Below, in pieces: positions 6,603 to 16,312 of a stretch of 64,000 nucleotides of DNA. How positions within the stretch are numbered: the stretch's first letter is position 1; every line of letters starts with the position of its first letter. The position numbers and the translations under genes were made by a program. The notes beneath the pieces were generated by a model that worked only from the letters and a program-made list of their open reading frames with translations, had not been told where the DNA came from and did not search any database. The stretch lies in NCBI GenBank assembly GCA_022072445.1, contig JAJVHV010000030.1, forward strand, positions 5,971 to 69,970, read 5' to 3'. This DNA is from Phycisphaerae bacterium (GTDB taxonomy: Bacteria; Planctomycetota; Phycisphaerae; UBA1845; Fen-1342).

Positions 6603-9359
6603 CTAGTGTGCGACCGCTCCAATCCCATCGACGATGAGCTGGAGCGGATCGCCGATCGGCAACACGAACAGGTCGGCGTTGACCAGCTCGTTGCGCAGCG
6701 GCAGCGGGCCGGGGCCGTCGAAGTCGATCGGCGCCTCGACGTTGTGGATGCTGCCGAACACCAGGTTCAGCAGCGCCAGCGACATGAACGGGTTGACGCG
6801 CGTCGCGCCGTTCAGCGCGTTGGCACCGTTGAAGAACTCCGGCGGTGCGAAGGCGGCCAGCAGGTTGACCGTCACGTTGGGCCGGCCGAAACGGAACGCG
6901 TTCAGGCGCGGCTTGAGGTTGCGGGCCACCAGCGCGACGCCGTTCAGCAGCTTCGGCGTGCTCGCCTGCCAGTCGATGTCCTGTGGTGCCGGGAAGCCGT
7001 TGTTGTCGGCGCGGCGGTAGTAGCGTTCGACGAACGTGGAGCGCCAATCGGCCGGGTTGTGCAGGAATTCGCGGAAGTCGAAGACCGGCTCGCCGGCATC
7101 CTGGACGTTGTTGTTATTGAAATCATCGTAGTACGGCGCGCCGTCCGCATCGTAGCCCGGGTTGGCGACGTGCGTGCCGAAGAAGTGCGTCGAGGTCTCG
7201 GGCGCCAGCGTGATGCCCAGAATGGCGGTCGGCGAGATCAGGACGTTGGTCGTCTCGTCGCCTGGCGTAAGCTGCAGCGGGGCGCCGTTGGGGCTGATGA
7301 GCTGGAAGAATCCGGTGCTGTTCGAATCGGGCAGGAACATCACAAAGTACGTGCCCTCGGGGTTGTACGTCGCCACACCCTCGACAAAGTCAACCTGCAC
7401 CGGTTCGCCGTCCGGGCCGAACTGATCCATCAGCACAAAGGCGCTGAAGTTCGGCGGGTTGGTCTCCGGATCGGCCGGCTGGCTGGGATCGAAGTCGGGG
7501 TTCTGAATCCGCAACGCGGGTGCGCCCGGATAGCCCGTGAACGTCTGGGAGAACGCGTCGCCAAACGCCTCGCCATTGACCGTCTCGAACACGGATCCGT
7601 CCATGACGTCGACGATCTGGCGAATACCCTTGCGATTGTGCAGCGGCCGGCCATTGCGACGATCGATGAACTCGACGGCCTGCCCACCCGGCGTCGGGTT
7701 GGCAAATCCGAGGAAGTAGCCGCCGGTGCCGTTACTAATGAAGCGGGCGCTGCTGACGCTGCCGTTGCTGTCCTGAATGATGTCGACGGTGACCGGCGCG
7801 GCGTTGGGGTTCTGGAAGCCGTCCTCGGTGGCCAGGGCGAAAACCTGCGCGGGACCGGAGCGGCTGAACGGCAAATGCGCACGCTGCGCGCGGATGAAGC
7901 GCGCGAACTCGTCCAGGCTGGGAACGCGATCCAGCAGGATACCGGCGTAGATCTCGTCGAACGACGGCTCGGCAGTCGGCGCGAGGAAGTCAATCATCAG
8001 CTTGCGCACGTCGGCCTTGTGCTGCTCGAAGTTGCCGTCGAAGTTAAACATGCCCAGCATCTGAATCTGCTCGTGCAGCAGACCCAGGTTGACCTCGACC
8101 GGGTTGCCGTCGATGCCCAGGAACACCTCGCTGGGCGGTTCGCCCGGGCCATTCGGCCGGACGAACATATAGCGCGCCCCCATGCCGTACTCGAGGTTCA
8201 CGACGATCGCGTGCAGCCCCGACAGGTCGATCGTCTTGCCGTCGAGGAAGAGCTGCGCGAGCTGCGTCAGGATGTGCTCGGAGAAAATCGGCCCGCGGCC
8301 CGGACCGCCGCTCAGATCCTCTTCCGGGAAATTGCGGTCAAACTCGCTGATCGTGGAGTAGTAGAGATCTGGACCCGTAACCGGCACACCCTGTGCCGCG
8401 TCGTCGCCGTGCTCAAAGTGAAAATCCTGGAACGCGACCTTCTGCACCGCCGGCAGCGAACCCAGGAACGAGAGGTCGATGCCGCCCGCGTCGTCGGCGA
8501 TCACGAACCCGCCGCGCAGCATGATCTGCGCCGCGGCCACGACCACGTCGTCAACCGTGTCGGCCTGCGAAAGCTGCACGTTCGCCGCCGCCATGTCCAT
8601 CGCGCGTCGGGCGGCGTCGGGAATAACCGTGTCGAAGAGCGAAGCGAGCACGTCGTCGGCCAGACCCAGCAGCTCGTCGATCGTGATCTCCTCATCTACG
8701 CCCGAATCGCTGAAGAGATTCTCGAACGCGTCGCGGATGCGCGCGACCAGGCCAGAAAGGCTCAGCTCGAATTCGCGCGGGTCGAGGCCGACCGAGACGA
8801 GCATCGCGCGAATCTTGGCGTGAATCAGCGTGCTCAGCGGGTCGACCACGACGCCCGTCAGCGCACCGTCGGTCGAGTTCTCAGTCGCTGGAATGTTGAC
8901 GATCGTCTTCAGGTCGGCGTCCCCGTCGCCGTCAAAGTCCACGTTCAGCACGATGTCCACACCGACCGGCAGTCCGGAAACGCTGAACGACCCGTCGGTT
9001 GCGATACTGAAGCTGGGATACGGCTCGCCGTTGGCGTCGAGCAGCGCGTCGCCATTGAGATCGGTGAACCACCCGGTGGCGTTCGTTGCGATCGCGCGGG
9101 AACGGAGCTTTCGCGCGGACGGGGAATCGCCGGCGTCGCTGGTGGTGGAAACGGAGTCCACGTTACCGCTCACGGAGCCGCCAAAACTCAGCGCCGTTGA
9201 CGAAACGTCGCCCGCCGCCCCGTCGGTCGAGCCACCCGTGCCGTCCGTCGTGCCGCCCGTGCCGTCGTCATCGCCGTCGTTGTTCCCCTGCTGCGGGCAG
9301 CCGGCAAGCAGCAGGCAGACCGCGAGGGGGGTGATTGCGTGAAGCCACCATCTGGTCAT
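6603..9359 (-). CDS. large secreted lipoprotein of unknown function
   Basis: ATG at 9359 gives MTRWWLHAITPLAVCLLLAGC (lipobox), then a Gly/Asp/Thr-rich linker; 918 aa ORF with no recognisable catalytic motif. Confidence 0.7.
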   Translation of the reverse strand: MTRWWLHAITPLAVCLLLAGCPQQGNNDGDDDGTGGTTDGTGGSTDGAAGDVSSTALSFGGSVSGNVDSVSTTSDAGDSPSARKLRSRAIATNATGWFTDLNGDALLDANGEPYPSFSIATDGSFSVSGLPVGVDIVLNVDFDGDGDADLKTIVNIPATENSTDGALTGVVVDPLSTLIHAKIRAMLVSVGLDPREFELSLSGLVARIRDAFENLFSDSGVDEEITIDELLGLADDVLASLFDTVIPDAARRAMDMAAANVQLSQADTVDDVVVAAAQIMLRGGFVIADDAGGIDLSFLGSLPAVQKVAFQDFHFEHGDDAAQGVPVTGPDLYYSTISEFDRNFPEEDLSGGPGRGPIFSEHILTQLAQLFLDGKTIDLSGLHAIVVNLEYGMGARYMFVRPNGPGEPPSEVFLGIDGNPVEVNLGLLHEQIQMLGMFNFDGNFEQHKADVRKLMIDFLAPTAEPSFDEIYAGILLDRVPSLDEFARFIRAQRAHLPFSRSGPAQVFALATEDGFQNPNAAPVTVDIIQDSNGSVSSARFISNGTGGYFLGFANPTPGGQAVEFIDRRNGRPLHNRKGIRQIVDVMDGSVFETVNGEAFGDAFSQTFTGYPGAPALRIQNPDFDPSQPADPETNPPNFSAFVLMDQFGPDGEPVQVDFVEGVATYNPEGTYFVMFLPDSNSTGFFQLISPNGAPLQLTPGDETTNVLISPTAILGITLAPETSTHFFGTHVANPGYDADGAPYYDDFNNNNVQDAGEPVFDFREFLHNPADWRSTFVERYYRRADNNGFPAPQDIDWQASTPKLLNGVALVARNLKPRLNAFRFGRPNVTVNLLAAFAPPEFFNGANALNGATRVNPFMSLALLNLVFGSIHNVEAPIDFDGPGPLPLRNELVNADLFVLPIGDPLQLIVDGIGAVAH

Positions 9360-9653
9360 TGTTCCACGTCTCCTGAAGTGCCCGAAAGGTGCCGCGCAAC
9401 CTTTGCGCTGCACTGGCGGGGAACTTGACCCCGCGTCGAACACTTTGTCGTGACGCGCCCGCGAGAACTTGAAAACCGCTCGGAAATGGCGCGATTCTGC
9501 GCCCGGAACGGTTGAGCAGACCGACGCCGATCGGCATAATCGAGCGCTAGCGGGCGCCCGCGGGCCGGTGCGGGCCCGCGGCGGCGGCTGGAGTTCCGGC
9601 AAGGGCGCGCAGCGGCGCGCCGACACACGTCACCCTCTGCTCGAGAGTCTGTC

Positions 9654-10451
9654 ATGGCCAAGAAAAAGGCGGCACGGAAAGTGAAGAAGGCGAAGAAAGC
9701 CAAGAAGGGACTCAAGAAAGTCGCGATCGCCAAGGCGAAAAAATCCGCCCGAAAGCGCGCAGCGCGGCCGAAGGCGACCCGAAGCTCCAGGCCCGCCACC
9801 GCCCGCAAGAGCGCCGGCCGCACCGTCAAGAAAGCCGCCGCGACGCGCGCCCCGGCGGCCGGCCGAGCCGCCAGCACGCGCGTCGTGAAGTCCGCCAGCG
9901 CGGCCGAAACACGCGTCGCCGCCCGTGCGCCCGTTCCCCCGAAGATCGCGCCGCTGACACCCGCGGTCGGCGAGCCCGCGCCCGACTTCGCGCTGCAGGA
10001 CGAGCGCGGCAACACGCGCACGCTCAGTGCCTATCGCGGCCGCACGCTGGTGCTCTATTTCTATCCCAAGGACGACACGCCCGGCTGCACGCTTGAAGCC
10101 TGCGCGTTTCGCGATGCGTCCTCCGAGTTCGACGCTCTGGCCGCCGCCATCGTCGGCGTCTCGCCCGACACGTCGGAGAGTCATGCGGCTTTCGCGCAGA
10201 AGTTCAGCCTGCCGTTCACGCTGCTGGCCGATCCCGACCATCGCGTCTGCGAGAAATACGGCGTGTGGCGCGAGAAGAATCTCTACGGCGAGACGCGGAT
10301 GGGCGTGGTGCGGACGACGTTCGTCATCGACGAGAACGGCCGCGTCGCGCAGGTCTTCGAGGGCGTCCGGCCCGACGGGCACGACCGTGAAGTGCTGACC
10401 TGGCTGCGCTCGCGCCAGCCCGCGCCCAGCATCGCCCCGAGCGGGTATTGA
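9654..10451 (+). CDS. bcp: peroxiredoxin Bcp/PrxQ fused to an N-terminal Lys/Ala-rich histone H1-like extension
   Basis: C-terminal 150 aa carry Bcp motifs (LVLYFYPKDDTPGCT...FSLPFTLLADPD). The N-terminal ~105 aa are KAKK/AKKA repeats; Lys codons are rare in this GC-rich DNA, which argues the extension is genuinely coding. Confidence 0.8.
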   Translation: MAKKKAARKVKKAKKAKKGLKKVAIAKAKKSARKRAARPKATRSSRPATARKSAGRTVKKAAATRAPAAGRAASTRVVKSASAAETRVAARAPVPPKIAPLTPAVGEPAPDFALQDERGNTRTLSAYRGRTLVLYFYPKDDTPGCTLEACAFRDASSEFDALAAAIVGVSPDTSESHAAFAQKFSLPFTLLADPDHRVCEKYGVWREKNLYGETRMGVVRTTFVIDENGRVAQVFEGVRPDGHDREVLTWLRSRQPAPSIAPSGY

Positions 10452-11380
10452 TGGGCGAGCACTTCGCCGACGCGCTGCTCGCCCGGATTCGGGAGCTGCG
10501 CGCCCCGGCCGCGGTCGGGCTCGATCCGCTCGCCGCGCGTCTGCCGCCCGAGCTGCGCGTCGACCCCGACGATGACGTCGCCGCCGCCGCCGCGTTCGAA
10601 GCCTTCGGCCGCGGCGTGATCGACACCGTCGCGCCGCTGGTCCCGGCGATCAAGATCAACTCCGCGTTCTTCGAAGCGCAGCACGAGCACGGCGTCGCGG
10701 CCTATTTCCGGCTGATCGCCCACGCCCGGCAGCGCGGCCTGCTGGTCATCGGCGACGTGAAGCGCGGCGACATCGGCTCAACCGCCGCACTCTACGCCCG
10801 CGGCCACCTCAGCGGCCGCGCGGCGCCCGACGCCGTCACGCTCGCCGGCTATCTGGGTGAAAACGCGGTCCGGCCGTTTGTCGACGTTTGCCGTGCCGAG
10901 CAGCGCGGCGTGTTCGTGCTCGTCCGACCGTCCGATCCGGGCGCTGACGAAGTTCACGAATTCGCAGGTGCTGCCGGTGCGACGCCCGGCTCGGCACGCC
11001 CGTTCTATCGTCACATGGCATCGCTGGTGGCGCGCTGGGGCAGCGACAGCGATCTGATCGGTCGGAGTGGGTACTCGTGCGTCGGCGCCGTGGTCGCGGC
11101 GAAGGACGCCGCCAGCACGCGCGCCCTGCGCGACGCCATGCCTGGCACGCTATTCCTGGTTCCCGGTTACGGCGCGCAGGGCGCTACCGCCGAAGCGTGC
11201 CGAAACTGCCTGAACGCCGACGGCCTGGGCGCGATCGTCAACGCGTCGCGCTCCGTCATCTTCGCCTACCTGGACGCCGGCGTCGCGGAGCGCGGCGGGG
11301 GCGACTGGCGCCGCTGCGTGCGGCTGGCGTGCGAAGATTTCGTCGCCGATCTACGCCGCGCGGGCCTGGCGCCCGCGTAG
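10451..11380 (+). CDS. pyrF: orotidine 5'-phosphate decarboxylase, type 2
   Basis: IKINSAFFEA...LLVIGDVKRGDIGSTA motifs. ATG at 10451 overlaps the bcp stop (TGATG). Confidence 0.85.
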   Translation: MGEHFADALLARIRELRAPAAVGLDPLAARLPPELRVDPDDDVAAAAAFEAFGRGVIDTVAPLVPAIKINSAFFEAQHEHGVAAYFRLIAHARQRGLLVIGDVKRGDIGSTAALYARGHLSGRAAPDAVTLAGYLGENAVRPFVDVCRAEQRGVFVLVRPSDPGADEVHEFAGAAGATPGSARPFYRHMASLVARWGSDSDLIGRSGYSCVGAVVAAKDAASTRALRDAMPGTLFLVPGYGAQGATAEACRNCLNADGLGAIVNASRSVIFAYLDAGVAERGGGDWRRCVRLACEDFVADLRRAGLAPA

Positions 11381-11462: not shown

Positions 11463-12083
11463 TCAGAGCGCCGGAATCAGCTTCTTGCTCAGCAGATACT
11501 CGATGACCTGCGTGGCGGCGTCGGCGACGCTCATGGTGGTGTTGACGATGGTCAGCTCGGGCTTGAGCGGCGCTTCGTAAGGCGCCGAAATGCCGGTGAA
11601 CTCCTTGATCTCCCCGGCGCGGGCCTTCTTGTAAAGCCCCTTCGGATCGCGCGTCTCGCAGATTTCCACCGGTACGTCGACGTGCACCTCGACGAACGGC
11701 AGCTTACCTTCCTCGTGAATCTTCCGCACCAGGTCGCGATCCGCGCGATACGGGCTGATAAAGCTCGTCAGCGTGATCACGCCCGTGTCCGCAAAAAGCT
11801 TGGCCACCTCGCCGATGCGACGAATGTTCTCGGTGCGGTCTTCGGGCGAAAAGCCGAGGTTCTTGTTCAGGCCGTGGCGGATGTTGTCGCCGTCCAGCAC
11901 GTACGAGAGGTGGCCGCGTTCGACCAGTGCGTGTTCGACCGTGTAGGCGATCGTGCTCTTCCCGCTGCCCGACAGCCCGGTAAACCAGATCGTGGTTCCG
12001 CGCTGCTTGAGCATGCCGTAGCGCTGCTCGCGGTCGACGTGTCCGTGGTGCCAGGTGACGTTGGTGGCGGCGATCTTGGTCAT
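11463..12083 (-). CDS. cysC: adenylylsulfate (APS) kinase
   Basis: P-loop [27 protein letters not shown] and ISPYRADRD motifs. Start at ATG 12083 ([14 protein letters not shown]); the upstream in-frame extension is non-homologous. Confidence 0.85.
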
Positions 12084-12320
12084 GTGTGGGCTTCCGTTTC
12101 GGAATATCGGGTTTCGGGTCGAACGCGGTAGGATAGGCTGGCGACGAGTCGCCGACAACCATCGGCGGCGGGCGCCACGGCCCGCGCGTGCGCTGTCGCC
12201 GCACCCATCGGCACGTTCACCTGGGGCCGATAATCGGCGCGCCCGAATTCGGGTGATTGACCCGACACTTTGCCCGTCCGACAATGACACCGAAAGTCCG
12301 GGCGGAAACGGAGAGCACGC

Positions 12321-12536
12321 ATGAAGATGTTCCGGTCTCGTAAGTGGATCACGCTGTTGACGCTCGGGGCCGCGCTGCCGGCGATCGCCGCAAGCTGCAC
12401 CGAGGCCCAGTCGCTCGTGGGCGGCACGTCGTTCGACGCGCTGCGCGACAGCTTCAGCACCAGCGGACAGCAGGTCAGTCCGTCCGGGGTTCAACGGATA
12501 TCGGGCCTGCGCCTGATCGCGCCCAGCCGGCCGTAG
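12321..12536 (+). CDS. small secreted protein (signal peptide), unknown function
   Basis: [26 protein letters not shown]; followed by a strong hairpin terminator. Confidence 0.35.
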
Positions 12537-12572
12537 GCGGCGGTCCGCAGCAGCTCGAGCGCTGAGAGAAGA

Positions 12573-12606
12573 AGCCGCGCCCATGGACGGGCGCGGCTTT
12601 CTTTCG
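12573..12606 (+). terminator. intrinsic terminator (possibly bidirectional, also 3' of the hsp20 at 12775)
   Basis: AGCCGCGCCC-atggac-GGGCGCGGCT followed by TTCTTTCG. Confidence 0.55.
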
Positions 12607-12774
12607 TCATCGCGGCACATCGTATCGGGTGGAATGCCCTTGATTGGGAAGCGGCATGCTCTCGCCGTCAGACGTGAACATGCGGTGTTCTGGGTGACAT
12701 GCTTACGCCCGGCGGCGAAAGCAAGCCACCCATGCCACTCAAGCCTAGTCCACCCACGCCGAATCCAACCGAGC

Positions 12775-13263
12775 CTACTCCGTCCGCACCTTGACGGTCT
12801 TCGGCTTGGCCCCGGCGCTCTTGCCGACGCGAATTGTCAGCACGCCGTCCTTGAATGACGCGTCGACGTCGTCGGCGTCCACGCCGCTCGGCAGGCGGAT
12901 ACTGCGCTGAAATCCGCCGAACTGCCGCTCGACGTAGTGGTAATTCTTCTGCTTCTCTTCGCGATCCGAGCGCTTTTCGCCGCGGACCGTCAGCACGTCG
13001 CCGCTGATCTCGACGTCGACGGCGTCTGGATTGACGCCCGGCAGCTCCATCGTGACCGTGACGGCGTCGGCCGTATCGGCCAGGTCGGTGCGCGGCATGG
13101 CGATCAAGTCCTCGTCGGCCTGCTCCCACGGCCAGGCGAACGGATCGCGCATGAAGCGCTCCAGGACGGACTCCATCTGGTCGCGCAGCAGCGACAGCGG
13201 CTGGTCAATCGGCGCCAGCGCGCTTCCTACCTCTCGCTTTCGTCTCCACGGAACGAGTTTCAT
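12775..13263 (-). CDS. Hsp20/alpha-crystallin family small heat-shock protein
   Basis: Alpha-crystallin domain: [38 protein letters not shown]...GVLTIRV. Confidence 0.85.
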
Positions 13264-13348
13264 GTCGAACCTCCTTCCTCGTCAGTTCAGAACTGCGCTC
13301 CGGACAGCTCAGCCGGAGCATACGTCTGGTTCCTTGCGTGGTTGCATG

Positions 13349-13747
13349 TCACGTCGGCTTGACGGCAATCTTCCGCGGCCGAAGCGCGCGGACCTTCGGC
13401 AAATGAAGCGTCAGCACGCCGTCCTTCAGTTCGGCCTCGATCTTCTCGGCGTCAATTCCTTCGCCGATCGTGAAGGCACGATGAAAGTCCCCGACGCCGT
13501 ACTCGCGCCGCAGGTAGCGCGTTCCTGCTTCCTGCCGCGGCTTGACGGTGCCGCGGATCGTCAGTTCGCCGCGCTCGTAGCGCACGTCGACGCCCTCGCT
13601 GGATACGCCGGGCATGTCGGCCAGCAGCAGCAGCTCTTCGGGCGTCTCGACGATGTCAACGAAGGGCACGTAGGTCCGGCCAGCCTGCACGCGCTCGGGC
13701 TTGACGTCCTGGGCGCAGCACGCGTTGTTATTGTCATGTGTCGTCAT
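13349..13747 (-). CDS. Hsp20/alpha-crystallin family small heat-shock protein
   Basis: VDIVETPEELLLLADMPGVSSEGVDVRYERGELTIRG...GVLTLHLPK. Confidence 0.85.
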   Translation of the reverse strand: MTTHDNNNACCAQDVKPERVQAGRTYVPFVDIVETPEELLLLADMPGVSSEGVDVRYERGELTIRGTVKPRQEAGTRYLRREYGVGDFHRAFTIGEGIDAEKIEAELKDGVLTLHLPKVRALRPRKIAVKPT

Positions 13748-13795
13748 GGTAAATCTCTCCCGCGGGCGCGGCTTCGCCGCCGCCCGTTGTCCTGG

Positions 13796-14233
13796 TTAGT
13801 TGGTTCGCACCGTGATCTTCCGCGGCAGGGCCTCGGGCGACTTGGTCAGCCGCACGGTCAACACGCCGTCGCGCAGCGTCGCGTCGACGTGCTCCGGATC
13901 GACGCGGCAGGGCAGCGTCACGACGCGCGAGAACTCGCCGACGCCGCGCTCCCGTCGCTGATACGTCCGCTCGGCGCCGTCGTGCCGCTCGCGTGAGCCC
14001 TTGATGACGAGTTCGTCGCCGGCGGTGGTAATCTCCACGTCCTCGCGCCGCACGCCGGGGACTTCGGCCTCGATCATCACGCTCTGCTGATCTTCCCAGA
14101 CGTTGATGGCCGGGAACGTCGCCGCACCGCCGAGCTCCGTCGCGACCCGGAATCCGAGATCGTCGAAGAGCCGGCCCATCTGCCGCTGAAGATCGTCCAG
14201 CGGATTCCACAGCAGTGAATTCCTACGCAGCAT
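13796..14233 (-). CDS. Hsp20/alpha-crystallin family small heat-shock protein
   Basis: INVWEDQQSVMIEAEVPGVRREDVEITTAGDELVIKG...GVLTVRLTK. Confidence 0.85.
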   Translation of the reverse strand: MLRRNSLLWNPLDDLQRQMGRLFDDLGFRVATELGGAATFPAINVWEDQQSVMIEAEVPGVRREDVEITTAGDELVIKGSRERHDGAERTYQRRERGVGEFSRVVTLPCRVDPEHVDATLRDGVLTVRLTKSPEALPRKITVRTN

Positions 14234-14515
14234 CGGATGTTCTCCTTTCCGGTCATGCGTGCACGTCGCTGCGCGGGCTTATCATCCGCCGTGCCAGGTC
14301 GGTGTATTCACATAACTACTTATGTTGTAATAGGTTATGAGATTCTGAGCGGCGAAGGGCTTCGTCGCGGGGCTTGTCAATCTGGCAGCCTGGCAGGCAG
14401 TCGCACGGTCCGCGCCAGCAACCGCGCCGGCCACTACAATGCAGCGTTTCACCGCGCCGCGCAAGCGTGGCACGACGCGGCAGAATCGACCCGCGGCGAG
14501 AGCAACAGCGCAGAC

Positions 14516-16312
14516 ATGGACCCGGCCCGCATCCGCAACTTCTCGATCGTCGCGCACATCGACCACGGCAAGAGCACGCTCGCCGACCGCCTCCTGCAGC
14601 GCAGCGGCGCCGTGGCCGACCGCGACATGAAGGAGCAGATGCTCGATTCGATGGACCTGGAGCGCGAGCGCGGCATCACGATCAAAGCCAGCGCCGTCAC
14701 CATCTCGGTCACCGTCGACGGCCAGGAGCACATGCTCAATCTGATCGACACGCCCGGACACGTCGACTTTCATTACGAAGTGTCGCGGGCGCTGGCGGCG
14801 TGTGAAGGGGCGCTGCTCGTCGTCGACGCCACGCAGGGCGTCCAGGCCCAGACGGTGGCGAACGCCTACGCCGCCATCGCCGGCAACCTCGAGATCATCC
14901 CGGTGGTCAACAAGGTCGATCTGCCCGGCGCGCATCCGGAGGACACCGCCATCGAGATTGAGCACGTGCTGGGGATCGATTCCGGCCACGTGCAATTCGT
15001 GTCTGCCAAGACCGGCCTGGGGGTTGATGAGATGATTCGCGCGATCGTGCGGCACCTTCCGCCGCCGCGCGGCGACGCCGCGGCACCGCTTCAGGCGCTC
15101 GTATTCGACTCGATCTACGACGACTATCGCGGCGTGATCTGCTACATCCGGCTGTTCAACGGAACGATTCGCAAGGGGCAGAAGGTGCTGCTGATGGGCC
15201 GTGGGCGGCACTACGTGGTCACCGAGCTCGGCAAGCTCCGCCCGAAGATGTCGCCGATCGAGACGCTCGCCGCCGGCGAGGTCGGTTACGTCGTCGCGAA
15301 CATCAAGATGCTGCAGGACGTGACGGTGGGCGACACGATGACCGACGCGCTGACGCCGGCCGCCGAGCCGCTGCCGGGTTATCAGCCGCCCAAGCAGATG
15401 GTTTTCTGCGATTTTTATCCGGCGGGCGGGGAGGACTATTCGGAGTTGCGCGACGCACTGCAGCGGCTGAGCCTGAACGACGCGTCGTTCACGTTCGTCC
15501 CGGAGCACAGCGAGGCGCTCGGCTTTGGCTTCCGCTGCGGATTCCTGGGCCTGCTGCACATGGACATCGTGCAGGAGCGGCTGGAGCGGGAGGCGGGGAT
15601 CGACGTGGTGCAGACGGCGCCGTCGGTGACGTACGAAGTGCTGCTGAACGACGGCGCGCAGTTGCAGATCGACGCCGCCGGCGACCTGCCTTCGGCCGAC
15701 AAGTACCAGGAGCTGCGTGAGCCGATCGTCGAGGTGCAGTTGATTATTCCGGCCGACGCGGTGGGGGCGATCATGAAGCTGACCGAGCAGCGCCGCGGGG
15801 CCTACCGCAAGACCGAGTATCTTTCGACTTCGCGCGTGCTCATGACGTACCACATGCCCTTCAACGAGATTCTCTACGATTTCTATGACAAGCTCAAGAG
15901 CGTGACCCGCGGCTATGGGACGATGGACTACCACTTCATCGGCTACCAGGCCAGCGACCTGGTGAAGCTCGACATTCTGGTCAACAGCGTCGCCGTCGAC
16001 GCCCTTTCGGTCATTCTGCACCGCTCGAACGCCGAGCGCCGCGGGCGGCGCATCATCGCCCGCCTGCGTGAGGAGATCGACAAGCACCTGTTTGAAATTC
16101 CGCTTCAGGCCGCGATCGGCTCGCGCGTTATCGCCCGCGAGACCATCAAGGCCATGCGCAAGAACGTGACGGCGAAGTGCTATGGCGGCGACGTGACCCG
16201 CAAGCGCAAGCTGCTGGAGAAGCAGAAAGAGGGCAAGAAACGGATGAAGACGGTGGGGCGGGTGGATATTCCGCAGAAGGCGTTCATGACGGTGCTGGAG
16301 CCGGAGGAGTAG
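14516..16312 (+). CDS. lepA: elongation factor 4 (LepA)
   Basis: N-terminal NFSIVAHIDHGKSTLADRLL, G-domain and LepA C-terminal domain; ~598 aa from ATG 14516. Confidence 0.9.
   Translation: MDPARIRNFSIVAHIDHGKSTLADRLLQRSGAVADRDMKEQMLDSMDLERERGITIKASAVTISVTVDGQEHMLNLIDTPGHVDFHYEVSRALAACEGALLVVDATQGVQAQTVANAYAAIAGNLEIIPVVNKVDLPGAHPEDTAIEIEHVLGIDSGHVQFVSAKTGLGVDEMIRAIVRHLPPPRGDAAAPLQALVFDSIYDDYRGVICYIRLFNGTIRKGQKVLLMGRGRHYVVTELGKLRPKMSPIETLAAGEVGYVVANIKMLQDVTVGDTMTDALTPAAEPLPGYQPPKQMVFCDFYPAGGEDYSELRDALQRLSLNDASFTFVPEHSEALGFGFRCGFLGLLHMDIVQERLEREAGIDVVQTAPSVTYEVLLNDGAQLQIDAAGDLPSADKYQELREPIVEVQLIIPADAVGAIMKLTEQRRGAYRKTEYLSTSRVLMTYHMPFNEILYDFYDKLKSVTRGYGTMDYHFIGYQASDLVKLDILVNSVAVDALSVILHRSNAERRGRRIIARLREEIDKHLFEIPLQAAIGSRVIARETIKAMRKNVTAKCYGGDVTRKRKLLEKQKEGKKRMKTVGRVDIPQKAFMTVLEPEE
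16061..16312 (+). repeat. direct repeat copy 1 (3' end of lepA), 252 bp
   Basis: 249/252 identical to 17507-17758; the three differences are all synonymous in the lepA frame. Confidence 0.9.

What the first reader, a model, noticed from the sequence alone, without database searches (positions are those of the whole stretch)
9654..10451. Peroxiredoxin Bcp fused to a histone H1-like Lys/Ala-rich N-terminal domain
About 105 residues of KAKKAKKGLKKVAIAKAKKSARKRAARPKA... repeats precede a complete Bcp/PrxQ domain in one ORF. AAG/AAA-rich coding is strongly non-random in 70% GC DNA, so the extension is probably translated. H1/AlgP-like tails bind DNA, suggesting a nucleoid-tethered thiol peroxidase.
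Basis: partly seen in the sequence, partly recalled or inferred. Interest (0 to 1): 0.55.

Follow-up and report, generated by a model that had tools for sequence, protein, structure and literature searches.

The report
Peroxiredoxin Bcp with polycationic disordered tail
A Phycisphaerae (Planctomycetota) bacterium makes its Bcp/PrxQ thiol peroxidase only as a fusion to a 104-residue, strongly positive, disordered Lys/Ala-rich tail, and similar tails sit on Bcp at either end in at least five phyla, which suggests (untested) that the enzyme is parked on DNA or another polyanion.

Summary
ORF 9654-10451 (+) encodes 265 aa. Residues 1-104 are a Lys/Arg/Ala-rich tail (22 K, 13 R, 31 A, 1 acidic; pI 12, about +33) that is predicted disordered. 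Residues 105-253 are a complete Bcp/PrxQ domain with the CP-x4-CR motif.

The tail is almost certainly translated:
- No start codon lies at the ancestral Bcp start (Thr102, ACA).
- A conserved sigma-70-like promoter and an SD-like motif lie upstream of ATG 9654.
- Against the closest relative, the tail shows only whole-codon indels and dN/dS 0.35.
- Dozens of homologues begin MAKKK and carry tails that differ in sequence but share composition.

The fusion is not a one-off. Of the 150 best 50%-identity cluster representatives, about 60 have N-terminal basic tails and 15 have C-terminal ones. Named examples come from Myxococcus, Gemmatimonadota and Bdellovibrionota. This points to repeated acquisition.

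The tail matches no family (Pfam HC2 not met, no true repeats). Its likeness to histone H1 is compositional.

Nucleoid tethering is the best-supported mechanism by analogy (HupB, TopA, DdbA, Dps, and yeast Dot5, a chromatin-bound BCP-type peroxiredoxin), but it is untested. RNA or polyphosphate binding remain rivals.

I found no paper describing this architecture. Verdict: a new variant of a known kind, of moderate interest.

The parts
9512..9540 (+). Predicted sigma-70-type promoter: TTGAGC (9512-9517), 17-nt spacer, CATAAT (9535-9540). Predicted TSS is near 9547, giving a 5' UTR of about 105 nt.
   Evidence: the only promoter-like site in 9300-10600 (1 found, 0.1 expected from shuffles); both hexamers are identical in the closest relative L001 while the spacer has diverged. 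It lies upstream of ATG 9654, so the transcript would include the tail.
9643..9647 (+). Weak Shine-Dalgarno-like GAGAG, 6 nt before the ATG.
   Evidence: the 21 nt before the ATG are identical in L001. Purine-rich GAGGA/GGAGA motifs sit 8-12 nt before the MAKKK start in L002, L003 and L061.
9654..10451 (+). Whole gene: 265-aa tailed Bcp/PrxQ peroxiredoxin (28.6 kDa, pI 10.5). It is identical to an NCBI MAG protein named 'Peroxiredoxin [Phycisphaerae bacterium]'.
9654..9833 (+). Strongly basic segment of the tail, aa 1-60 (MAKKKAARKVKKAKKAKKGLKK...), net charge about +28.
   Evidence: charge profile; coil, pLDDT 49-57; the first 26 aa are nearly identical in P0002.
9834..9965 (+). Ala/Pro/Ser/Thr-rich, mildly basic linker, aa 61-104. 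It ends in APVPPKIAPLTPAV and includes Thr102 (ACA, 9957-9959) at the position of the ancestral Bcp start Met.
   Evidence: codons CTG ACA CCC here, CTG ACG CCG in L001.
9966..10412 (+). Bcp/PrxQ (AhpC-TSA) thioredoxin-fold domain, aa 105-253.
   Evidence: Pfam E 6.5e-42. (PRK09437, 151 bits against a 140-bit cutoff). (pLDDT 90-97). (solved Bcp/PrxQ 5enu, 3gkk, 5iiz align only to aa 105-253).
10086..10103 (+). Active-site motif: peroxidatic Cys145 (TGC 10086-10088) within P138-x3-T142-x2-C145, and resolving Cys150 (TGC 10101-10103), i.e. CP-x4-CR.
   Evidence: Read directly from the sequence. P138, T142, C145, C150 and R220 are invariant in the 22-sequence alignment A1.
10451..11380 (+). pyrF (orotidine-5'-phosphate decarboxylase). 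Its ATG overlaps the bcp stop codon by 1 nt (TGATG), so the two genes probably form an operon.
   Evidence: OMPdecase E 5e-22. pyrF lies immediately downstream of bcp also in L001, L083, L085 and L088, with overlapping or abutting coding ends in L001, L083 and L088.

Best explanation
The gene encodes a catalytically intact, atypical 2-Cys Bcp/PrxQ thiol peroxidase that is made only as a fusion. An intrinsically disordered, polycationic Lys/Ala/Arg-rich segment of about 60 aa (net about +28) is joined by an Ala/Pro-rich linker of about 45 aa to the acidic catalytic domain (pI 5.2). The architecture arose by 5' extension of the reading frame past the ancestral start codon. Most likely the tail binds polyanions electrostatically and without sequence specificity, above all chromosomal DNA. 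That would concentrate peroxide scavenging at the nucleoid, where H2O2 and organic hydroperoxides drive Fenton damage. The flexible linker would leave the active site free to be recycled by thioredoxin. Shown here: the ORF, the intact domain, predicted disorder, the lack of an internal start, expression signals upstream, purifying selection on the tail and conservation of its composition, and recurrence across lineages at either terminus. Inferred: DNA or nucleoid binding and the protective role.
For: Translation of the tail:
- Untailed Bcps start with Met exactly 7 residues before the APDF motif (60 of 71). The window has Thr (ACA) there, and 42 of 49 tailed homologues also lack Met at that position, so the domain cannot be made without the tail.
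- The promoter TTGAGC-17-CATAAT at 9512-9540 is conserved in L001.
- SD-like motifs precede the MAKKK ATG in four loci.
- Against P0002 (83% identical), the tail has only 1- and 3-codon indels and dN/dS 0.35, against 0.15 in the domain.
- GC3 in the tail is 0.83.

Selection on composition rather than sequence:
- In 50 tailed homologues, tail length is 39-245 aa, K 26%, A 27%, P 11%, D/E about 0, and net charge has a median of +26. K/(K+R) is 0.84, against 0.24 in the window's own genes, so Lys is held against the GC mutational bias.
- 37 of 51 tailed hits begin exactly MAKKK.
- The tail alone has no detectable homologue.

Recurrence:
- Tailed forms make two pure clades of 26 and 21 sequences, plus this pair.
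- bcp-pyrF synteny links five Phycisphaerae-type loci.
- Of the 150 best 50%-identity representatives, about 60 have N-terminal and 15 have C-terminal K/A/P tails.
- Named examples are Myxococcus dinghuensis and Gemmatimonadota (C-terminal) and Bdellovibrionota (N-terminal), plus Fibrobacteria.
- A module that works at either end fits a tether.

Specificity: no other K-rich tail occurs in about 150 kb around these loci.

Structure: tail is coil with pLDDT about 50, domain has pLDDT above 90.

Precedent:
- K/A/P tails confer DNA binding on HupB (PMC5676037), TopA (PMC5714199), DdbA (PMC3643593) and Ku (PMC3553676).
- Yeast Dot5, a BCP-type peroxiredoxin (E 1e-12 to 2a4v), is tethered to chromatin by a disordered N-terminal motif (PMC13347269).
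- In two loci of another tailed clade, bcp lies directly downstream of uvrC and next to katG.
Against: - No experiment or tool here shows nucleic-acid binding or localisation.
- The tail meets no curated H1-like model. Pfam HC2 gives no hit for this protein and only 22-31 bits, against a 40-bit cutoff, in relatives.
- Comparable tails bind RNA (PhaF, PMC12818456) or act at polyphosphate granules (AlgP, PMC9239181), so DNA is not the only candidate ligand.
- A conserved in-frame GTG at 9885 (aa 78) cannot be formally excluded as a second start, although it has no SD-like sequence.
- The genomic context here (pyrF, a large lipoprotein) says nothing about DNA protection.
- The closest domain relatives are mostly untailed, so the tail is not needed for Bcp function in general.
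Confidence: 0.55

Rival explanations
1. The tail tethers Bcp to RNA or ribosomes, or to polyphosphate granules or condensates, rather than to DNA. The enzyme would then protect or regulate those structures, or be stored in them.
For: The KPAA-rich disordered region of PhaF binds specific mRNAs and activates translation (PMC12818456). The H1-like protein AlgP organises polyphosphate granules (PMC9239181). The composition of the tail would bind any polyanion. Nothing in the sequence discriminates between ligands.
Against: For most characterised bacterial K/A/P tails on enzymes and nucleoid proteins, DNA is the demonstrated ligand (PMC5676037, PMC5714199, PMC3643593, PMC3553676). No polyphosphate kinase or RNA-related gene is linked to bcp in any locus examined.
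Confidence: 0.2
2. The tail has no ligand. It acts as a solubility or entropic bristle, an oligomerisation or phase-separation modulator, or a stability or turnover determinant, or it is a nearly neutral low-complexity expansion tolerated on an abundant enzyme.
For: The tail evolves faster than the domain (dN/dS 0.35 against 0.15) and varies from 39 to 245 aa. It has no sequence homology. Some relatives carry mixed basic and acidic tails, for example P0081 and P0176.
Against: Lys is kept at 7-9 times the background frequency against the GC mutational bias, and acidic residues are excluded, in about 50 diverged homologues. The same composition was acquired at N or C termini in several phyla. 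The MAKKK start is conserved. dN/dS is clearly below 1. Together these indicate selection for positive charge, not neutrality.
Confidence: 0.12
3. The long ORF is mis-annotated. Translation starts inside it, at GTG 9885 or at a non-canonical codon near the domain, and the Lys-rich stretch is an untranslated leader or a separate element.
For: GTG 9885 is in frame and conserved in L001. The SD-like motif before ATG 9654 is weak (GAGAG). Seven of 49 tailed homologues keep Met at the ancestral start, so short isoforms may exist in those species.
Against: No ATG, GTG or TTG lies within 26 codons of the domain, and Thr102 occupies the ancestral start. Frame-preserving indels, dN/dS 0.35 and GC3 0.83 mark the tail as coding. 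There is no stop in frame. More than 75 independent 50%-identity clusters keep tail and domain in one frame. No SD-like sequence precedes GTG 9885. The only promoter-like site is upstream of ATG 9654.
Confidence: 0.05
4. The fusion is a DNA-tethered redox sensor or relay rather than a scavenger. The peroxiredoxin would pass oxidising equivalents to nucleoid-bound proteins such as transcription factors or nucleoid-associated proteins, as Orp1 and Tpx1 do in yeasts (own knowledge).
For: Bcp enzymes have modest catalytic capacity compared with AhpC (own knowledge). The CP-x4-CR pair is intact and could form mixed disulfides. Chromatin-bound Dot5 affects silencing and repair when overexpressed (PMC13347269).
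Against: No partner gene is conserved next to bcp. The resolving Cys favours rapid intramolecular resolution. There is no direct evidence.
Confidence: 0.08

Closest known systems
Bcp/PrxQ subfamily peroxiredoxins (E. coli Bcp; Xanthomonas campestris PrxQ 3gkk/5iiz; Burkholderia 5enu)
   Same: Full-length thioredoxin-fold AhpC-TSA domain with PxxxTxxC and a resolving Cys five residues later. About 45-50% identity to solved Bcps. Passes the NCBIfam equivalog cutoff.
   Different: Canonical Bcps are 150-160 aa, start 7 residues before the APDF motif and are acidic. This protein carries 104 extra N-terminal residues with about +33 charge, which raises the whole protein to pI 10.5.
Saccharomyces cerevisiae Dot5 / nuclear thiol peroxidase (BCP-type Prx)
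   Same: A BCP/PrxQ-type catalytic domain (E 1.2e-12 to 2a4v) with a disordered N-terminal extension that tethers it to chromatin and has been linked to genome protection (PMC13347269).
   Different: Dot5 uses a short Arg-rich HMGN-like motif that recognises the nucleosome acidic patch, plus a C-terminal DNA-binding element. The bacterial tail is a long Lys/Ala-rich polycation with no such motif, and bacteria have no nucleosomes. The origins are independent.
Bacterial proteins with histone H1-like Lys/Ala/Pro tails: HupB, TopA, DdbA, Ku (actinobacteria); AlgP and PhaF (Pseudomonas); Hc1/Hc2 (Chlamydia)
   Same: A low-complexity, acidic-residue-free, disordered K/A/P-rich segment appended to a folded functional domain. 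In those proteins it confers DNA binding, or RNA or polyP association (PMC5676037, PMC5714199, PMC3643593, PMC3553676, PMC9239181, PMC12818456).
   Different: The partner domain here is an antioxidant enzyme with no nucleic-acid substrate. The tail lacks the regular PAKKA/KPAA/AAKK repeats, is N-terminal, and does not reach the Pfam HC2 threshold.
Dps (DNA-binding protein from starved cells)
   Same: An antioxidant protein that binds DNA through a flexible Lys-containing terminal tail and so protects DNA from peroxide and Fenton chemistry (own knowledge; Dps DNA binding is also in PMC4677351). This is the same functional logic.
   Different: No homology. Dps is a ferritin-fold dodecameric ferroxidase with a short tail. 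This protein is a thiol peroxidase with a 104-aa tail.

Membership tests
Bcp/PrxQ peroxiredoxin (thioredoxin-dependent thiol peroxidase) | AhpC-TSA thioredoxin-fold domain above curated thresholds | tested here: met
   Pfam PF00578, 142.8 bits against a 26-bit cutoff, profile positions 1-123 of 124. NCBIfam PRK09437, 151.3 bits against a 140-bit cutoff. AF2 pLDDT 90-97 with a thioredoxin-like beta/alpha pattern.
Bcp/PrxQ peroxiredoxin (thioredoxin-dependent thiol peroxidase) | PxxxTxxC peroxidatic-Cys motif and conserved active-site Arg | tested here: met
   P138-KDD-T142-PG-C145 read from the sequence. P138, T142, C145 and R220 are invariant in alignment A1.
Bcp/PrxQ peroxiredoxin (thioredoxin-dependent thiol peroxidase) | Resolving Cys (atypical 2-Cys, CP-x4-CR as in E. 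coli Bcp) | tested here: met
   C150 is invariant in A1. The comparison with E. coli Bcp C45/C50 rests on own knowledge.
Bcp/PrxQ peroxiredoxin (thioredoxin-dependent thiol peroxidase) | Thioredoxin-dependent peroxidase activity | not testable with these tools
   Needs an enzyme assay.
Histone H1-like nucleoprotein HC2 (PF07382) / AlgP-type repeat proteins | Match to the family model above the gathering score | tested here: not met
   The tail gives no HC2 hit even at E up to 10. Relatives reach 22-31 bits against a 40-bit cutoff. NCBIfam gives nothing. The tail alone finds no homologue among 5.8 billion proteins.
Histone H1-like nucleoprotein HC2 (PF07382) / AlgP-type repeat proteins | Tandem Lys-rich oligopeptide repeats (KPAA, PAKKA, AAKK pentamers and similar) | tested here: not met
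   TRF finds only a 9-nt unit x2.9 (score 38) and a 20-nt unit x2.4 (score 46).
Histone H1-like nucleoprotein HC2 (PF07382) / AlgP-type repeat proteins | K/A/P-rich, acidic-poor, intrinsically disordered composition | tested here: met
   21% K, 30% A, 8% P and 1 acidic residue in 104 aa; pI 12. Coil with pLDDT about 50.
Histone H1-like nucleoprotein HC2 (PF07382) / AlgP-type repeat proteins | Non-specific DNA binding or nucleoid association | not testable with these tools
   Needs EMSA or localisation.
Dot5/nTPx-type chromatin-tethered peroxiredoxin | BCP-type catalytic domain | tested here: met
   phmmer E 1.2e-12 to Dot5 structure 2a4v.
Dot5/nTPx-type chromatin-tethered peroxiredoxin | Arg-rich HMGN-like motif that binds the nucleosome acidic patch | tested here: not met
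   The tail is Lys-dominated low complexity with no such motif. Nucleosomes are absent in this lineage as far as is known. The resemblance is functional only (PMC13347269).

The most novel reading that the evidence does not exclude
Bcp/PrxQ peroxiredoxins have repeatedly and independently acquired polycationic disordered tails, N-terminal in Phycisphaerae, Bdellovibrionota and Fibrobacteria and C-terminal in Myxococcus and Gemmatimonadota. This would create an unrecognised class of nucleoid-resident 'genome-guardian' peroxidases, a bacterial counterpart of yeast Dot5. They might also act as DNA-tethered H2O2 sensors that relay oxidation to nucleoid proteins, or as clients of DNA, RNA or polyP condensates.
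Probability: 0.3. Interest if true: 0.65.

Novelty: new variant of a known kind. Interest (0 to 1): 0.45.

Why it matters
Peroxiredoxins are usually treated as freely diffusing cytoplasmic scavengers. A Bcp that is made only with a polycationic tether would mean that some bacteria place peroxide removal at the chromosome or another polyanion. Until now that logic has been associated with Dps in bacteria and, for peroxiredoxins, only with yeast Dot5. The tail appears on the same enzyme family at either terminus in at least five phyla, which argues for a general selective advantage. It also offers many natural variants (39-245 aa, N- or C-terminal, some with acidic blocks) for testing how disordered polycations localise bacterial enzymes. 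A cultured species, Myxococcus dinghuensis (WP_253973074.1), carries a C-terminal version, so the idea can be tested experimentally. For annotation, these proteins are currently labelled only 'peroxiredoxin' or 'thiol peroxidase', which hides the extra module.

Tried and rejected
- Internal start or RBS near 9960: none found. Only GTG 9681 and GTG 9885 are in frame, and neither has an SD-like sequence.
- Tail as a member of a known family: Pfam, NCBIfam and a 5.8-billion-protein search with the tail alone all gave nothing.
- True tandem repeats: not supported.
- Antisense ORFs 9356-10021 (-) and 9630-10382 (-): rejected as high-GC shadow ORFs. The + frame carries the Pfam domain, the GC3 signal and the frame-preserving indels.
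- A structured or riboswitch-like 5' UTR: folding is no better than shuffled sequence (z -0.72), and there is no Rfam hit at E up to 1.
- A genome-wide habit of Lys-rich tails: no other instance in the 64-kb window or in about 90 kb of related loci. The rest of the genome could not be examined.
- A second Prx paralogue in the window: none.
- Conserved functional neighbours: only pyrF, which has no obvious link. The uvrC/katG adjacency is seen in two related loci of another clade and is too thin to use.
- Signal peptide or membrane anchor: the tail has no hydrophobic stretch, with 4% hydrophobic residues at the median across homologues.
- LepA appeared to have a 95-aa N-terminal extension. This is an over-long ORF call, and the real start is MDPARIRNF.
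- Eight literature searches found no paper on a Bcp/PrxQ with an H1-like tail.
- The number of independent tail acquisitions could not be settled. NJ trees of a 150-aa domain at about 50% identity are too noisy.
Full report
**1. What is in the sequence**

ORF 9654..10451 on the + strand starts with ATG and encodes 265 aa. An in-frame stop lies upstream at 9537.

Residues 1-104 contain 22 K, 13 R, 31 A, 8 P, 14 S/T and a single acidic residue. Their pI is 12 and their charge about +33.

Residues 105-233 match Pfam AhpC-TSA end to end (E 6.5e-42). Residues 105-253 pass the NCBIfam equivalog model for thioredoxin-dependent thiol peroxidase (Bcp), at 151 bits against a 140-bit cutoff.

The active-site signature P138-x3-T142-x2-C145 and a resolving Cys at C150 are present, and they are invariant in an alignment of 22 relatives. 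Solved Bcp/PrxQ structures (5enu, 3gkk, 5iiz; about 160 aa) align only to residues 105-253.

AlphaFold2 gives pLDDT 90-97 for the domain. It gives featureless coil at pLDDT 49-57 for residues 1-104.

The same protein is already in NCBI as 'MAG: Peroxiredoxin [Phycisphaerae bacterium]'.

**2. Is it more than chance?**

Yes.
- A six-frame scan of the 64-kb window for stop-free 40-aa stretches with at least 10 Lys finds only this locus.
- Likely genes in the window contain 2.9% Lys and 9.0% Arg, so K/(K+R) is 0.24. The tail has 21% Lys.
- GC drops locally to 0.52 with a strong excess of A over T.
- Third-position GC in the + frame stays at 0.83, the coding signature of this 67% GC genome.

TRF reports only two marginal arrays. 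The tail is low-complexity, not repetitive.

**3. Is the tail translated?**

Several independent lines say so.

(a) Untailed Bcps begin with Met exactly 7 residues before the conserved APDF motif (60 of 71). In the window that position is Thr102 (ACA). 42 of 49 tailed homologues have likewise lost the Met. The only in-frame start-like codons before the domain are GTG 9681 (aa 10) and GTG 9885 (aa 78), and neither has a purine-rich leader. So the essential domain cannot be made without at least part of the tail.

(b) The only sigma-70-like promoter in 9300-10600 is TTGAGC-17-CATAAT at 9512-9540 (1 found, 0.1 expected). Both hexamers are identical in the closest relative while the spacer has diverged.

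(c) The 21 nt before the ATG, including GAGAG, are identical in that relative. GAGGA/GGAGA motifs sit 8-12 nt before the MAKKK start in three more distant loci.

(d) Against P0002 (83% identical; locus L001), the tail differs by one 1-codon and one 3-codon indel only. Its dN/dS is 0.35, against 0.15 in the domain.

(e) Tail and domain stay in one frame in dozens of diverged homologues, and 37 of 51 of them begin exactly MAKKK.

**4. How widespread is it?**

In the 90%-identity database, 51 of the 128 proteins collected (mostly the 120 best hits) carry basic tails of at least 30 aa. On a neighbour-joining tree of the domain they form two pure clades of 26 and 21, plus the window protein with P0002. 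Source names are Phycisphaerae, Phycisphaerales and Planctomycetota.

Five loci share the arrangement bcp followed at once by pyrF: the window, L001, L083, L085 and L088. In the window and L001 the pyrF ATG overlaps the bcp stop by 1 nt. This indicates orthology across a Phycisphaerae lineage.

Searching with the domain alone returns almost only untailed 150-160-aa Bcps at 58-67% identity. Among 80 species-representative genomes, only a planctomycete, a Fibrobacteria MAG and, with a short tail, Chrysopegis show basic extensions. Pirellulales-type Bcps start MADWIEP. Tailed forms are therefore a minority.

The exhaustive search of 1.84 billion 50%-identity representatives gave 662 hits at E up to 1e-30. 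Among the best 150, about 60 have N-terminal Lys-rich tails and 15 have C-terminal Lys/Ala/Pro-rich tails.

Named examples:
- Myxococcus dinghuensis WP_253973074.1, C-terminal '...APAKKKTAPAKKKAPVAKK...'
- A Gemmatimonadota MAG, MBM3908045.1, C-terminal 'PAKKPAKKPAAKK...'
- A Bdellovibrionota MAG, MEZ4814711.1, N-terminal

The same kind of tail on the same enzyme, at either end and in at least five phyla, means repeated acquisition. It argues for a function that does not depend on position.

**5. What is conserved in the tails?**

Composition is conserved, not sequence. Across 50 tailed homologues:
- length is 39-245 aa (median 79)
- K is 26%, A 27%, P 11%, S/T 13%, D/E about 0
- net charge has a median of +26
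- K/(K+R) is 0.84

The tail alone finds no homologue and no family. Pfam HC2 is reached only below threshold in some relatives (22-31 bits against a 40-bit cutoff).

In the window protein the charge is front-loaded. Residues 1-60 carry about +28. Residues 61-104 are an Ala/Pro/Ser/Thr linker with about +6. The catalytic domain is acidic, with pI 5.2.

The tail is specific to Bcp locally. No other Lys-rich stretch occurs in the window or in about 90 kb of related loci.

**6. Mechanism**

The best-supported reading is a polyanion tether. A disordered polycation holds an otherwise ordinary Bcp on nucleic acid, most likely the nucleoid, through non-specific electrostatic contacts. A flexible linker leaves the active site accessible to peroxide and thioredoxin.

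This step is inferred, not shown. It rests on analogy:
- K/A/P tails confer or strengthen DNA binding in HupB (PMC5676037), Streptomyces TopA (PMC5714199), DdbA (PMC3643593) and M. smegmatis Ku (PMC3553676).
- Dps combines antioxidant chemistry with a Lys tail that binds DNA (own knowledge).
- Yeast Dot5, a BCP-type peroxiredoxin homologous to this domain (E 1e-12), is tethered to chromatin by a disordered N-terminal motif (PMC13347269).

A weak contextual hint comes from another tailed clade, where bcp lies directly downstream of uvrC and beside katG in two loci. A third locus of that clade differs.

**7. Rivals**

- Similar tails bind RNA (PhaF KPAA region, PMC12818456) and act at polyphosphate granules (AlgP, PMC9239181). 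RNA or polyP tethering therefore cannot be excluded (about 0.2).
- A ligand-free role, or neutral expansion, is disfavoured. Lys is maintained against the GC bias, acidic residues are excluded, and the tail has been gained convergently (about 0.12).
- Mis-annotation with an internal start is unlikely (about 0.05).
- A DNA-tethered redox-relay or sensor role is speculative (about 0.08).

**8. Comparison with what is known, and novelty**

The catalytic domain is a bona fide Bcp/PrxQ member, and all sequence-testable criteria are met. The tail is not a member of the HC2 or AlgP families, because the model threshold and the repeat criterion were not met. It works like them only in composition and predicted disorder.

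The closest functional analogue is Dot5, which uses a different, nucleosome-specific motif and arose independently.

Eight full-text searches found no description of a Bcp/PrxQ with an H1-like tail. Databases label these proteins simply as peroxiredoxins.

I rate it a new variant of a known kind. The fusion is real, conserved and recurrent, and its role is plausible but untested. Interest is moderate (0.45).

Noticed in passing
P0236 (Myxococcus dinghuensis WP_253973074.1), P0292 (Gemmatimonadota MBM3908045.1), P0192, P0235, P0251: Bcp homologues with C-terminal rather than N-terminal Lys/Ala/Pro-rich tails of 50-180 aa. 15 of the 150 best 50%-identity representatives are of this type. One is from a cultured Myxococcus species, which makes experiments feasible.
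   Followed up: partly
P0006, P0009, P0010, P0012, P0040, P0063, P0064, P0076, P0079 (e.g. L003 / L085 10001-10753): A Phycisphaerales subclade of tailed Bcps shares a short conserved motif, P(K/R)xPRRTxQAxPP, at the junction of the Lys-rich and Pro-rich parts of the tail. It could be a linear binding motif. It is absent from the window protein.
   Followed up: no
P0003, P0005, P0007, P0015, P0017, P0021, P0064: 7 of 49 tailed homologues keep a Met exactly at the ancestral Bcp start (7 residues before APDF), while Met is about 1% elsewhere in the tails. This could be a relic, or it could allow a short untailed isoform by internal initiation in those species.
   Followed up: partly
P0081, P0176, P0179, P0181, P0184: Some tails are 180-270 aa long and combine the Lys-rich block with a strongly acidic Asp/Glu block, for example EEDDFDDEEGAAEEDEEDE in P0081. 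That gives a polyampholyte extension rather than a pure polycation.
   Followed up: no
L084 5900-10672 and L086 1585-6702: In another tailed-Bcp clade the gene order is katG (divergent), then uvrC, then tailed bcp. This places the enzyme next to nucleotide-excision repair and catalase-peroxidase genes. It is seen in two related loci only, and L087 differs.
   Followed up: partly
window 6603-9362 (-): A large predicted lipoprotein of about 920 aa, with signal and lipobox MTRWWLHAITPLAVCLLLAGC, has no Pfam match and is transcribed divergently from bcp. A gene of similar size without Pfam hits holds the same position in L001 and L083. The listed 1007-aa ORF is over-extended at its 5' end.
   Followed up: partly
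window 10449-10453: The bcp stop and the pyrF start overlap by 1 nt (TGATG), as in L001. The coding ends also overlap or abut in L083 and L088, which suggests translational coupling of a peroxiredoxin with a pyrimidine-biosynthesis gene. No functional rationale is apparent.
   Followed up: partly
window 12775-14233 (-): Three tandem Hsp20/alpha-crystallin small heat-shock genes (162, 132 and 145 aa) lie between cysC and lepA.
   Followed up: no
window 9558-9585: A GC-rich hairpin (CGCGGGCC-N6-GGCCCGCG) lies in the predicted bcp 5' UTR. The UTR as a whole folds no better than shuffled sequence (z -0.72), has no Rfam match and is not conserved in L001.
   Followed up: yes
window 11463-12620 (-) and 14237-16312 (+): The mechanical ORFs for cysC (APS kinase) and lepA are over-extended at the 5' end. 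The Pfam domains begin near internal ATGs (MTKIAATN... at about 12050; MDPARIRNF... at about 14516). Neither has a real N-terminal extension.
   Followed up: yes
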